DNA from: the human T2T-CHM13v2.0 reference genome, Homo sapiens
Strand: one strand, 5' to 3'
Assembly: GCF_009914755.1 (NCBI RefSeq)
Contig: NC_060948.1
DNA: 64,000 nucleotides
In this document: positions 15,271 to 18,029 of the stretch, piece after piece
Numbering within the stretch: the first letter of the stretch is position 1
Layout: each line of letters begins with the position of its first letter
Made by a program: the position numbers and the translations under genes
Notes under the pieces: model-generated
The model's input: only the letters and a program-made list of their open reading frames with translations
Databases searched by the model: none
Told to the model about the DNA's origin: nothing

Positions 15271-15404
15271 TGAACCGGAGGCTCCTGTACCGGCTGCATC
15301 CGGAGCAGGGCATGCCGGCCGGCGTGTGCGTGGACGCTGCGGGGAAGCTCTGGGTGGCCTCTGCGTCGATAGAGGCAAGGTGATACGCCTGGACCCCGAG
15401 ACAG
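15271..15404 (+). pseudogene. Regucalcin/SMP-30-like unprocessed pseudogene, exon A
   Basis: Bounded by ttgcag| and |gtgtgt. Translates [29 protein letters not shown][+2 nt][15 protein letters not shown] versus recalled human RGN [44 protein letters not shown]. Confidence 0.92.
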
Positions 15405-15589
15405 GTGTGTGCCGGATGGCGGGGCCGTATGAGGCTTGGCCACATCGGGTGTCCACTGCGTCTGCAGCGTTCTGGCTTCAGAAGTCGGGGCCGGGCAGCA
15501 ATCGCGAATTTGTAGAGACTAAGGGGCCTCCGTTTCCCGACGGCACGGACTCCCAGGTTCCCTCTGCAGGTGTGCTAGGTCCTGGGGCT

Positions 15590-16280
15590 GCCGCAACCAA
15601 GGACTGGCTGCCGAAAAAACAGGAAGTCACCTCCCCCAGTCCTGCAGAGCAGGAGTCTGAGACCGAGGAGTTTCAGGGCCGTACTCCCTCCAGGAGCTGT
15701 AGTGGAGGGTCCTTCCTGCCTCTCCCGGCTCCTGGGGGCTCCAGGCATCCCTGGGCTTGTGGCCGCATCACTCCACTCTCTGCCTCCGTCTCCACGTGGC
15801 CTCCTCCTCTGTGTCTGTGTCTCCTCTTCTGTCTCTAGAAGGACACCTGTCATTGCATTTAGGATCCACCCTACTCCAGGATGATCTCATCTCAAGATCC
15901 TTCACTAACTAGATCTTGAAACACCCTATTTCTATACAAGGTCTCATTCCTAGGTTGTGGATATTAGGGTGTAGACAGATCTTTTTGGGAACCACAGTTC
16001 AATCCACTTCAATTGTATTGAGACTCTAGGGGAGGGTCCTTCCTGCCTCTCCCAGCTCCTGGGGGCTCCAGGCATCCCTGGGCTTGAGGCCACATCACTC
16101 CAGTCTCTGCCTCCGTCTCCACGTGGCCTCCTCCTCTGTGTCTGTGTCTGCTCTTCTGTCTCTTAGAAGGACACTGGTGATTGGATGTAGGGCCCACCCT
16201 AACCTGCTCTGACCTACTAATTACCTCTGCAAACACCCTATTTCCAAATAATTTCCCATTCTGAGATCCTACTTGACATG
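15590..16280 (-). mobile_element. MLT1(C)-like MaLR LTR, two tandem ~327-bp copies
   Basis: GGAGGGTCCTTCCTGCCTCTCCC(A/G)GCTCCTGGGGGCTCCAGGCATCCCTGGGCTTG... occurs at ~15704 and ~16031. It resembles MLT1C. Confidence 0.7.
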
Positions 16281-16465
16281 AATCTGGGGAGACTACAGAG
16301 CTCACTAGAGCAGGTGCGGCTGGGCCTGGCTAGGCAGGTGCCAATCTGGCAGCTCCAGGTGCCACAGAGACACCCATGCTGCCCGGGGGTTGGGCCCAGG
16401 GTCAGGAGGAACGGCCAGGCAGGCGGCCTGGGGTGCTCAGGCTCAGCCCCCACGCTCGCTCACAG

Positions 16466-16619
16466 GGAAGGTGCTGTGCACGGTGGAGCTGCCTGTGTAC
16501 AGGGTCACCTCTTGCTGCTTCGGGGACCCGGCTACGACAACCTCTACGTGACCTCCGCGGCGGACCGCCTGAGTCCGGAGCACTTGTTACGGGAGCCCCG
16601 GGCTGGACACATCTTCAAG
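16466..16619 (+). pseudogene. Regucalcin/SMP-30-like unprocessed pseudogene, exon B
   Basis: Bounded by cacag| and AAG|gt. Translates GKVLCTVELPVYRVTSCCFG[-1 nt]GPGYDNLYVTSAADRLSPEHLLREPRAGHIFK versus RGN [52 protein letters not shown]. Confidence 0.92.
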
Positions 16620-16771
16620 GTTCCGTAAGGGTTTTCTGCCGAGAGTCCCTCCTGGGGCCGCGGGCGAGAGCTCATCTTTAACCTCGGTGGGAAGCTCGGG
16701 CAGGGTGGGCGATGTCTGCAGACAGACGGAGGTTATTGTTTCTGTTTCCTAGAAAACAAACGTTTCCAAAC

Positions 16772-17065
16772 TTTTTTTTTTTTGAGATGGAGTTTCGCTC
16801 CTGTTGCCTGGGCTGCAGTGCAGTGGCGTGATCTCGGCTCACTGCAACCTCCGCCTCCTGGGTTCAAGTGATTCTCTCACCTCAGCCGCCTGAGTAGCCG
16901 GGATTACAGGGAGGCACCACCACACCCGGCTAATTTTGTATTTTTAGTAGAGACGGGGTTTCACCATGTTGGTCAGGCTGGTCTTGAACTCCCGACCTCA
17001 GGTGATCCGCCGGCCTCGGCCTCCCAAAGTGCTGGGATGACAGGTGCGAGCCGCTGCGCCCGGCC
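16772..17065 (-). mobile_element. AluS
   Basis: Poly-T followed by a full reverse Alu, with flanks GTTTCCAAA/GTTTCAAA resembling a TSD. Confidence 0.9.
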
Positions 17066-17111
17066 AGTTTCAAAGGTTTTATGCCCCTGGGTGTTAGACA
17101 GAAATTGTGTT

Positions 17112-17410
17112 GGCCGGGCGCGGTGGCTCACGCCTGTAATCCCAGCACTTTGGGAGGCTGAGGCGGGCGGATCACGAGGTCAGGAGATCGAGACCATCCC
17201 GGCTAAAACGGTGAAACCCCGTCTCTACTAAAAATACAAAAAAATTAGCCGGGCGTAGTGGCGGGCGCCTGTAGTCCCAGCTACTTGGGAGGCTGAGGCA
17301 GGAGAATGGCGTGAACCCGGGAGGCGGAGCTTGCAGTGAGCCGAGATCCCGCCACTGCACTCCAGCCTGGGCGACAGAGCGAGACTCCGTCTCAAAAAAA
17401 AAAAAAAAAA
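17112..17410 (+). mobile_element. AluYa5 (young, human-specific subfamily)
   Basis: Diagnostic motifs ATCCCGGCTAAAACGG, GGCGTAGTGG, CTACTTGGG and GATCCCGCC. Pure poly-A tail and TSD AGAAATTGTGTT. Confidence 0.88.
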
Positions 17411-17426
17411 AGAAATTGTGTTTTTA

Positions 17427-17734
17427 GGCCGGGCCCAGTGGCTCATGCCTGTCATCTCAGCACTTTGGGAGGCCGAGGCAGGAGGATCATGAGGTCAGGA
17501 GATCGAGACCATCCTGGCTAACCTGGTGAAACCCCGTCTCTACTAAAAAATACAAAAAAAAAATTATCTGGGCGTGGTGGCACCTGCCTGTAGTCCCAGC
17601 TACTCGGGAGTCTGAGGCAGGAGAATGGCATGAACCTGGGAGGCGGAGGTTGCAGTGAGCCGAGATCGTGCCACTGCACTCCAGCCTGGGCGACAGAGAG
17701 AGACTCCGTCTCAAAACAAACAAACAAACAAAAA
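17427..17734 (+). mobile_element. AluY/Sc-type Alu
   Basis: Full-length Alu with (CAAA)n tail and TSD AAATTGTGTTTTTA. Confidence 0.88.
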
Positions 17735-17852
17735 TTGTGTTTTTAACGTGTGGGTTTTAAAGCCTCCAGCATTGTTCTGGCCTCACTCTGCCGGTAACAC
17801 GGTGTTTCGGCCACAGCCTTGGAACTGACCGCAGCATCCCGGCTCCATCCAG

Positions 17853-18029
17853 GGGTCACGGGCTTTGGGGTGAGAGGAGGCCCCCCGTTTACCCCTTCAC
17901 TGGCTGAGCCGAGAGCCGCTCCCAGGGCAGCTTCGTGCGTTGGCCTCCGTGCGGGGGTGCTGGGCCGGCGTCAGCGGCCCCCCGCACGCTCATTCCCGCA
18001 GCAGCGTCGGGTTCACAGCGGGCAATAAA
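17853..18029 (+). pseudogene. Regucalcin-like pseudogene, terminal exon with stop (17905-17907) and AATAAA (18024-18029)
   Basis: After ccatccag|gg it reads VTGFGVRGGPP[+2 nt]YPFTG-TGA versus the RGN C-terminus ITGLGVKGIAPYSYAG*. A poly(A) hexamer lies ~117 nt after the stop. Confidence 0.78.

What the first reader, a model, noticed from the sequence alone, without database searches (positions are those of the whole stretch)
15271..18029. Fossil of a divergent regucalcin (SMP-30/gluconolactonase) paralog with three intron-separated exons
Seen: three AG/GT-bounded segments of 134 nt, 154 nt and a terminal exon with TGA plus AATAAA, each with a small frameshift. Their lengths equal the RGN-aligned lengths of 132 and 155 nt after the +2 and -1 indels, and the first two splice in phase. 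Known: RGN lies on Xp11 and binds its metal through E18/N154/D204. Here the D204-equivalent is Ala (PAGV versus PDGM). Inference: identity to recalled RGN is only about 60% in exon A and codon positions are GC-rich, which points to an old paralog that stayed functional for a long time and died later, rather than a recent copy. The 5' exons are absent, and LTR5, VNTRs and the 61-bp array occupy that position. The first two exons may already be annotated as an unprocessed pseudogene, but the terminal exon and the paralog history may not be.
Basis: partly seen in the sequence, partly recalled or inferred. Interest (0 to 1): 0.8.

Follow-up and report, generated by a model that had tools for sequence, protein, structure and literature searches.

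The report
Dead second regucalcin gene in PAR1
Near the tip of the human X/Y pseudoautosomal region lie the last three exons of a broken second regucalcin gene that lemurs, squirrels, elephants, marsupials and birds still have intact; it is an ordinary lost-gene relic.

Summary
Window 15271-15404, 16466-16619 and 17853-17907 are three AG/GT-bounded segments. They are collinear with the last three coding exons of regucalcin (RGN) and use the same splice positions and phases as RGN on chrX, whose matching exons are 132 and 155 nt plus a terminal exon. The stop codon sits at the homologous codon, and the only + strand AATAAA in the first 22 kb lies 117 nt after it.

Two corrections apply. There are four frame breaks, not three, because exon C has two. 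LTR5 could not be checked.

In a 65-row tree the fossil falls inside the placental "regucalcin-like" clade (100/100). I equate this clade with gene R1 of Duque et al. 2022. Forcing the fossil to group with mammalian RGN is rejected (p-AU 0.00038).

Intact 299-aa R1 proteins are annotated in Lemur, Microcebus, tree shrew, rodents, afrotherians, marsupials, platypus and sauropsids. No haplorhine R1 appeared in the lists I saw.

The 5' exons are absent from the whole 77 kb between the fossil and the chromosome end, where minisatellite arrays lie.

Verdict: an unprocessed, truncated unitary pseudogene. It is real and ordinary, and I recall that GENCODE already annotates part of it.

The parts
15271..15404 (+). 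Exon A, 134 nt. Homolog of the 132-nt RGN exon that encodes residues about 188-231. It carries a +2 insertion somewhere in about 15359-15373, which brings an in-frame TGA at 15381-15383. The Asp204-equivalent is Ala.
   Evidence: SGL Pfam E 4.7e-4, 20.3 bits, below the 26.3 cut-off. R1 proteins match at 59-74% identity, E 1e-7 to 1e-8.
15405..16465 (+). Intron 1, 1061 nt, GT...AG. It contains a 140-nt direct repeat at 15697-15836 and 16024-16163 (95% identity).
   Evidence: The homologous RGN intron is 251 nt.
16466..16619 (+). Exon B, 154 nt. Homolog of the 155-nt RGN exon. It has a 1-nt deletion in the G run at about 16522-16524.
   Evidence: R1 proteins match at 67-79% identity, E 1e-14 to 1e-16.
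16620..17852 (+). Intron 2, 1233 nt, GT...AG. It is filled largely by Alu-like elements, including two tandem copies at 17112-17745.
   Evidence: That these are Alu is my reading of the sequence, not a tool call.
17853..17907 (+). Terminal coding exon remnant. It has two extra nt at its start (17853-54) and two more in the C run near 17885-86. The TGA at 17905-17907 sits at the codon homologous to the RGN stop.
   Evidence: The C-terminal motif matches R1 proteins better than RGN.
17908..18029 (+). Remnant of the 3' UTR, ending in AATAAA at 18024-18029.
   Evidence: this is the only + strand AATAAA in window 1-22687. It lies 117 nt after the stop.
1..14642 (.). Not part of the gene. This stretch lies where the 5' exons would be. 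It holds a 61-bp array (1-9778), a 26-bp array (10037-12603) and a 56-bp-period minisatellite (13687-14642), with about 1 kb of unique sequence between them.
   Evidence: No RGN or R1 exon match here or in chrY 1-62000.

Best explanation
This is the non-functional, 5'-truncated, intron-bearing remnant of the human copy of the second amniote regucalcin gene. NCBI calls that gene 'regucalcin-like', and I equate it with gene R1 of Duque et al. 2022. It is not a copy of RGN.

Shown here:
- The duplication that produced RGN and R1 predates the mammal-sauropsid split.
- R1 remains an apparently intact 299-aa protein in many mammals, with the regucalcin metal and substrate residues conserved.
- In the human lineage the coding sequence was destroyed. 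The first three coding exons are gone, the three remaining exons carry four frame-breaking indels, and the Asp204-equivalent metal ligand is Ala.
- Nothing coding can be made from it.

Inferred:
- The gene was lost after the haplorhine-strepsirrhine split, tens of millions of years ago.
- The 5' part was removed by rearrangement or array expansion at the subtelomeric edge of PAR1. The gene's 5' end points towards the telomere, which lies 77 kb away.
For: Homology and gene structure: searches show three collinear exons, five conserved splice sites, matching phases and a stop at the homologous codon.

Constraint signature: identity at codon positions 1/2/3 is 62/73/37%, dN is 0.38 with dS saturated, and GC by position is 0.63/0.50/0.835.

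Closer relatives than RGN exist. A phmmer search with 33 aa of exon B against 1.84 billion representative proteins gave 6 hits at E<=0.001. One is the window's own ORF. Four are R1-like at 72-80% identity, against 58.6% for RGN. One is a 2788-aa repeat protein.

Named 'regucalcin-like' proteins appear in squirrels, beaver, Tupaia, Sorex, colugos, Nycticebus, Lemur, Microcebus, tenrec, elephant, armadillo, platypus, opossum, birds and reptiles (232 hits, 120 listed).

Tree of 65 rows by 299 columns: the fossil lies in the placental R1 clade (100/100, 21 rows). The amniote R1 clade has 100/100 support (31 rows). Human RGN lies in the mammalian RGN clade (100/99). The AU test against fossil plus RGN gives p 0.00038.

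Identity over the 108 fossil columns is 61-72% to 19 of the 20 placental R1 rows and 58% to dugong, against 58% to human RGN.

Relaxed constraint: the fossil's end branch is 0.47 against a median of 0.089. It departs at 8 of 60 columns that are at least 90% conserved in placental R1, against 0-4 departures in the 20 intact proteins.

Catalytic positions 18, 101, 103, 154 and 204 are conserved in 20-22 of 23 mammalian and 6-7 of 7 sauropsid R1 rows.

No other copy exists in the human genome. The exon B peptide matched only the X and Y PAR1 copies. PF08450 found only the five RGN exons plus three weak unrelated hits.

Published frame: Duque et al. 2022 (PMC9233358, passages read) infer an R1/R2 duplication at the base of reptiles, birds and mammals, with R1 kept in only a small fraction of mammals.
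Against: - The fossil covers only 36% of the alignment columns and has a long end branch. Its position within placentals is unresolved: it sits in a polytomy of 17 rows, not specifically with the three strepsirrhines.
- Single-exon Pfam SGL scores (20.3 and 15.6 bits) are below the 26.3-bit cut-off, and the second exon B piece matched no Pfam family.
- Orthology in the strict, syntenic sense was not tested, because no vertebrate genome other than this one was available.
- My mapping of the 'regucalcin-like' clade to the paper's 'R1' rests on its text alone. The tree figure and supplements could not be seen.
- The absence of haplorhine R1 proteins is absence from annotation lists, not from genomes.
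- The date of loss rests on recalled rates.
Confidence: 0.88

Rival explanations
1. It is a decayed duplicate of RGN itself (the Xp11.3 gene), copied into PAR1 within mammals or primates and then degraded neutrally.
For: RGN is on the same chromosome arm (C23:46.488-46.502 Mb). The best PDB matches are regucalcin chains.
Against: The AU test rejects fossil plus mammalian RGN as one clade (p 0.00038). The fossil is 61-72% identical to 19 of the 20 placental R1 rows but 58% to human RGN. Third codon positions are only 37% identical to RGN while second positions are 73% identical, which is not neutral decay. Exon DNA identity to RGN is only 57-67%.
Confidence: 0.02
2. It derives from R1, but it is a partial segmental copy that landed in the subtelomeric PAR1 edge, not the in-place remnant of the ancestral locus. 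The true ancestral R1 locus would have been deleted entirely elsewhere.
For: Only the 3' half of the gene is present, and it abuts minisatellite arrays. From general knowledge, subtelomeres collect duplicated fragments. In two songbird gene models RGN and R1 are fused head to tail, which suggests the ancestral R1 sat next to RGN. Human RGN is 46 Mb away from the fossil.
Against: This is the only R1-like sequence in the genome. A truncation of a gene whose 5' end faces the telomere is explained more simply by terminal erosion or array expansion. X and Y copies are identical over 3099 nt, as expected for ordinary PAR1 sequence.
Confidence: 0.08
3. The remnant is still used, for example as exons of a non-coding transcript that ends at the retained poly(A) signal.
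For: All five splice sites and the AATAAA are still intact.
Against: RefSeq lists no transcript here (hub table). The coding frame is broken four times. No expression data were available to me.
Confidence: 0.05

Closest known systems
Mammalian 'regucalcin-like' gene (R1 of Duque et al. 2022, BMC Ecol Evol, PMC9233358), e.g. the 299-aa proteins named for Lemur catta and Microcebus murinus
   Same: Same gene lineage by tree (100/100). Identity over the last 108 residues is 64-72% for Lemur, Microcebus, Nycticebus, Castor and Tupaia. The fossil shares lineage-specific residues that RGN lacks (alignment).
   Different: The human copy lacks the first three coding exons, has four frameshifts and has lost the Asp204-equivalent. 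The lemur and other proteins are full length with catalytic positions conserved.
Human RGN / SMP30 (Xp11.3; PDB 3G4E, 4GNB)
   Same: Same family and the same exon-intron architecture in the last three exons. Splice positions and phases are identical and the stop is at the same codon.
   Different: It is the other paralog, separated before the mammal-sauropsid split. Identity is 57-58% at the protein level and 57-67% at the exon DNA level, and GC3 is 0.43 against 0.835. RGN is intact.
Human unitary pseudogenes such as GULOP (the lost last enzyme of ascorbate synthesis). This comparison is recalled, not tested.
   Same: A gene functional in other mammals, dead in humans with no replacement copy of the same lineage, left as an intron-bearing partial relic. 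Regucalcin catalyses the step before GULO (stated in PMC9233358).
   Different: R1 has a surviving paralog (RGN) that can do the same chemistry. R1 was also lost in many mammals that keep GULO, so a causal link is not shown.
GENCODE unprocessed pseudogene ENSG00000228572 (clone name LL0YNC03-29C1.1 / AL954722.1). This is recalled, and no tool could confirm it.
   Same: As I recall it, its 1349-bp span equals the distance from the start of exon A to the end of exon B (15271-16619 is 1349 nt).
   Different: If my recollection is right, it lacks the terminal exon and any statement of which paralog it descends from. The RefSeq table supplied by the hub has no entry here. A search for these three identifiers found 0 papers.

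Membership tests
SMP-30/gluconolactonase/LRE-like (Pfam SGL, PF08450) | Significant match to the family profile | tested here: inconclusive
   Exon A scored 20.3 bits (E 4.7e-4) and the first exon B piece 15.6 bits (E 0.013). Both are below the 26.3-bit cut-off because each piece is only 26-36 aa. The second exon B piece had no Pfam hit. Sequence searches are significant: regucalcin in PDB at E 1.5e-6 and 3.5e-5, and R1 proteins at E 1e-14 to 1e-16.
SMP-30/gluconolactonase/LRE-like (Pfam SGL, PF08450) | Metal-binding residues (E18, N154, D204 in human RGN numbering; the roles are recalled from the RGN structure papers) | tested here: not met
   Only the D204 position falls in the surviving part, and it is Ala. 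E18 and N154 lie in the missing exons.
Amniote regucalcin paralog R1 ('regucalcin-like') | Groups with R1 sequences and not with RGN in a phylogeny | tested here: met
   The fossil lies in the placental R1 clade at 100/100 and the amniote R1 clade at 100/100. Grouping with mammalian RGN is rejected, p-AU 0.00038.
Amniote regucalcin paralog R1 ('regucalcin-like') | Conserved gene neighbourhood with R1 of other species | not testable with these tools
   No vertebrate genome other than the window's own was available, and the protein databases give no context.
Unprocessed unitary pseudogene | Introns retained at the parental positions | tested here: met
   Two introns (1061 and 1233 nt) lie at the same codon positions and phases as in RGN.
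Unprocessed unitary pseudogene | Reading frame disabled | tested here: met
   Four frame-breaking indels. The 5' exons are absent from chrY 1-77270.
Unprocessed unitary pseudogene | No intact copy of the same lineage in the genome, while other species keep a full-length ortholog | tested here: met
   In the own genome only the PAR1 copies on X and Y match, and PF08450 finds only RGN. Full-length 299-aa R1 proteins are annotated in Lemur, Microcebus, Castor, Tenrec, Dasypus, platypus and Monodelphis. Their activity has not been tested.
Recent RGN duplicate (canonical regucalcin lineage) | Nests within mammalian RGN | tested here: not met

The most novel reading that the evidence does not exclude
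Human PAR1 once carried a working second gluconolactonase at its very tip. Its death in the haplorhine stem would belong to the same episode as the loss of GULO: once ascorbate synthesis stopped, the R1 lactonase feeding it became dispensable. The inactivating event itself would have been erosion of the gene's telomere-facing 5' half by subtelomeric array turnover. In that case a PAR1 gene was lost through chromosome-end dynamics. A further element is that RGN and R1 began as tandem neighbours, as the fused songbird models suggest, and were later pulled 46 Mb apart on the mammalian X.
Probability: 0.12. Interest if true: 0.5.

Novelty: new member of a known kind. Interest (0 to 1): 0.3.

Why it matters
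The finding adds one clearly assigned entry to the short list of human unitary pseudogenes. It shows that the distal-most recognisable gene relic of PAR1 is a lost enzyme gene that strepsirrhine primates still have.

It gives the published R1/R2 regucalcin duplication a physical trace in the human genome. It also offers a datable marker, through shared frameshifts, for when haplorhines or anthropoids lost R1.

Practically, it warns that 'regucalcin-like' hits at the tip of Xp/Yp are not RGN. Beyond that it is ordinary. No new mechanism is involved, and no function is expected from the human sequence.

Tried and rejected
- Word-indexed protein search with the exon A ORF ('longer' lengths) found only the window's own ORF, 1 of 8 candidates. 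This was uninformative.
- PF08450 over the own genome did not list the fossil at all, because only 13 candidates are scored. It is useful only for showing that no other strong SGL locus exists.
- Search for the 5' exons. tblastn of five RGN exon peptides against chrY 1-126000 gave a best non-fossil E of 0.15, inside repeats. tblastn of 8 R1 proteins gave nothing for residues 1-188 at E<1 except one 0.76 hit at 122955 in low-complexity sequence. A Pfam scan found 0 of 37 upstream + strand ORFs (12467-15270) matching SGL.
- The 'shorter' protein search with lemur R1 residues 186-299 gave 51 hits among 57 candidates. The named ones were birds, a fish and molluscs, and none was a primate fragment.
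- NG86, LWL85 and YN00 could not return dS, which is saturated or undefined. No dN/dS ratio is therefore given.
- Literature searches: regucalcin + pseudogene + pseudoautosomal found 1 paper, which is irrelevant and concerns RGN expression. The three GENCODE identifiers found 0 papers. regucalcin + PLCXD1 found 0. 'regucalcin-like' + pseudoautosomal found 0. 'regucalcin pseudogene', 'RGN pseudogene', 'SMP30 pseudogene' and 'RGNP1' found 1 paper, about ginseng and irrelevant.
- I considered and rejected a processed pseudogene (introns are present) and chance similarity (E-values).
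Full report
**What is there**

The window is human PAR1 (chrY:62001-126000 of T2T-CHM13, per the hub). The own genome is held, with C23 as chrX and C24 as chrY.

- Exon A is 15271-15404 (134 nt), preceded by AG and followed by GT.
- Exon B is 16466-16619 (154 nt), likewise bounded.
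- Exon C starts at 17853 after an AG and reaches a TGA at 17905-17907.
- An AATAAA lies at 18024-18029. It is the only + strand AATAAA between window positions 1 and 22687.

**Is it regucalcin-like beyond chance?**

phmmer of the in-frame pieces against PDB put regucalcin chains (3G4E, 4GNB, 4GN7) on top for both exon B pieces. The second piece scored E 3.5e-5, and all three hits for the first piece were regucalcin at E about 0.02.

For exon A, regucalcin scored E 1.5e-6 over residues 187-216. It ranked behind designed 'Pizza' propellers and PknD, whose scores come from summing a repeated NHL-like motif.

I located RGN itself in the same genome with PF08450. Five exons lie at C23:46,488,180-46,501,907, and the three other hits are weak and unrelated. 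I then fetched the locus.

tblastn of the fossil pieces against that locus hits the last three coding exons in order:

| Fossil piece | E-value |
|---|---|
| Exon A | 9e-11 |
| Exon B, first piece | 1.6e-5 |
| Exon B, second piece | 2e-9 |
| Exon C | 0.04 |

Read from the genome, those RGN exons are 132, 155 and 51 nt. Splice positions and phases are the same in both genes, and both rebuild a G|GG glycine codon across the A/B junction.

**Lesions**

A codon-level alignment by coordinates shows four frame breaks.
- Exon A has a +2 insertion, with its site ambiguous within about 15359-15373. It brings in a TGA at 15381.
- Exon B has a 1-nt deletion in a G run at about 16522.
- Exon C has two +2 insertions, one at its first two bases and one in a C run near 17885.

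So there are four frame breaks, not three. After these are set aside, no nonsense codon lies in the 109 aligned codons, and the TGA stop falls at the homologous codon.

The position equivalent to RGN Asp204 is Ala.

**Old paralog or decayed RGN copy?**

Against RGN the 109 codons are 57% identical in protein. Nucleotide identity is 62%, 73% and 37% at codon positions 1, 2 and 3. dN is 0.38 and dS is too saturated to compute. GC by position is 0.63/0.50/0.835 in the fossil, against a GC3 of 0.43 in RGN. Divergence concentrated at third positions means that most of it accrued while the sequence encoded a protein.

A phmmer search with 33 aa of exon B against 1.84 billion representative proteins returned 6 hits at E<=0.001. 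One is the window's own ORF, one is a long repeat protein, and four are proteins 72-80% identical to the fossil. That is well above the 58.6% of RGN.

One of the four, P0006, was used as a query over residues 222-376. It returned 232 proteins, of which 120 were listed with names.

These include 'regucalcin-like' proteins of ground squirrels, marmots, beaver, hamster, deer mouse, tree shrew, shrew, desman, two colugos and three strepsirrhine primates. The primates are Nycticebus coucang, Lemur catta and Microcebus murinus, the last two at 299 aa. Also listed are tenrec, elephant shrew, elephant, dugong, armadillo, platypus, opossum, birds, a turtle and lizards, alongside ordinary RGN of many vertebrates.

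**Tree**

I took 63 of the 120 listed proteins, chosen by name to cover clades. I left out 57: extra squirrel copies and isoforms, unnamed rows, the two fused songbird models, and further birds, fishes and sharks. I added human RGN spliced from the genome and the fossil read through with X at each break.

The careful IQ-TREE run (LG+C20+F+G4 by PMSF, 65 rows by 299 columns) gives the following.
- One clade holds all 'regucalcin-like' sequences of sauropsids and mammals (31 rows, 100/100).
- Within it is a placental clade (21 rows, 100/100) that contains the fossil.
- The fossil lies in a 17-row subclade (96/98) with boreoeutherians and armadillo. Its position inside that subclade is unresolved.
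- Human RGN sits in a separate mammalian RGN clade (11 rows, 100/99).
- The frog sequence falls outside both (99/81).

Forcing the fossil together with the 11 mammalian RGN rows costs 38.5 log-likelihood units, with p-AU 0.00038.

This matches Duque et al. 2022 (PMC9233358; passages read). They infer a duplication into R1 and R2 in the common ancestor of reptiles, birds and mammals, and note that only a small fraction of mammals keep R1. Equating the 'regucalcin-like' clade with their R1 is my inference from that text. The main text holds no occurrence of 'synten' or 'tandem', and none of the 11 passages returned for my search terms mentions a human R1 relic.

**Signs of relaxed constraint**

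- Over the 108 fossil columns the fossil is 61-72% identical to 19 of the 20 placental R1 rows and 58% to dugong. Examples are Castor 72%, Lemur 70%, Nycticebus 67% and Microcebus 64%. Lemur R1 is 68-82% identical to the other placental R1 proteins.
- The fossil's end branch is 0.47, against a median of 0.089.
- Of 60 columns at least 90% conserved among 20 placental R1 proteins, the fossil departs at 8, including the Asp204 position. The intact proteins depart at 0-4.
- In intact R1 proteins the positions equivalent to RGN 18, 101, 103, 154 and 204 are conserved in 20-22 of 23 mammalian and 6-7 of 7 sauropsid rows. R1 therefore probably remains a lactonase where it survives. This is an inference. 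The roles of those residues are recalled, not tested.

**Missing 5' half**

I searched with RGN exon peptides and with eight R1 proteins against chrY 1-126000. This span runs from the chromosome end to the end of the window and was fetched. Only exons A and B matched.

A Pfam scan found 0 of 37 upstream + strand ORFs between 12467 and 15270 matching SGL.

The space upstream is taken by a 61-bp array (1-9778, 160 copies), a 26-bp array (10037-12603, 99 copies) and a 56-bp-period minisatellite (13687-14642).

The gene's 5' end faces the telomere, and the fossil begins only about 77 kb from the chromosome end. That the 5' exons were removed by subtelomeric turnover is an inference.

**Copy number**

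The exon B peptide matches only the X and Y PAR1 copies. These are identical over 3099 nt.

**When was it lost?**

Three strepsirrhines have full-length proteins. No haplorhine R1 appeared among the 120 listed proteins, nor among the 51 short hits to the lemur C-terminal third. This points to loss after the strepsirrhine-haplorhine split, but it is absence from annotation, not from genomes.

Four indels in about 340 nt and an excess branch length of roughly 0.3 suggest, with recalled neutral rates and large error, some tens of millions of years of neutrality. PAR1's elevated rate would shorten that figure. I give this low confidence.

**What it is not**

- It is not a processed pseudogene, because introns are present.
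- It is not a recent RGN duplicate (tree and AU test).
- It is not coding.
- Whether it is transcribed could not be tested. RefSeq has no model here (hub table).
- I recall a GENCODE unprocessed pseudogene (ENSG00000228572) whose 1349-bp span would equal exon A start to exon B end. No tool could confirm this, and a search for its identifiers found no paper.

**Verdict**

The object is an ordinary unprocessed unitary pseudogene: the human relic of the amniote 'regucalcin-like' (R1) gene.

I found no paper linking regucalcin to PLCXD1 or the pseudoautosomal region. The explicit assignment of this relic to R1, its terminal exon and its position at the PAR1 tip may therefore be unpublished. It is nonetheless a new member of a well-known kind.

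Noticed in passing
window 1-9778 and 10037-12603: Two very large, regular minisatellite arrays lie here: a 61-bp unit with 160 copies (89% matches) and a 26-bp unit with 99 copies (94% matches). Together they fill the first 12.6 kb of the window.
   Followed up: partly
window 13687-14642: A degenerate minisatellite with a 56-bp period (TRF also reports 83, 121, 151 and 211-bp periods) lies about 630 nt upstream of exon A. Its + strand frames are open for up to 113 aa, which is a repeat artefact, not a gene.
   Followed up: partly
window 15697-15836 and 16024-16163 (intron 1 of the fossil): A 140-nt direct repeat at 95% identity, spaced 327 nt apart, with a second weaker pair (46 nt, 76%) in register after it. 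This looks like a local duplication of about 320 nt, or two copies of one interspersed element.
   Followed up: no
chrY 1-62000 (loci L013-L019), upstream of the window: The same chance peptide matches recur at regular multi-kb spacings, for example near 22.9, 30.7 and 37.3 kb and near 26.8, 29.3, 33.4, 35.9, 40.9 and 43.4 kb. The subtelomeric 60 kb is therefore built of large tandem or nested repeats.
   Followed up: no
proteins P0008 (662 aa) and P0015 (683 aa), two songbird gene models: Each holds two SGL domains. The N-terminal half is RGN-type, 79-87% identical to pheasant, gharial and woodpecker RGN. The C-terminal half is R1-type, 79-92% identical to kiwi, chicken and turtle R1. The two genes therefore appear to be head-to-tail neighbours in these birds, which suggests the amniote duplication was tandem.
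   Followed up: partly
listing, ground squirrels: Callospermophilus lateralis and Ictidomys tridecemlineatus each have many distinct 'regucalcin-like' proteins placed on different large contigs, about ten clusters in the former. R1 seems to have been amplified in ground squirrels, while most mammals lost it.
   Followed up: no
window 16774-17070 and 17105-17745 (intron 2 of the fossil): Three Alu-like insertions, one antisense and two tandem sense copies (TRF period 319, 2 copies, 88%), account for most of the growth of this intron from 681 nt in RGN to 1233 nt. That these are Alu is my reading of the sequence.
   Followed up: no
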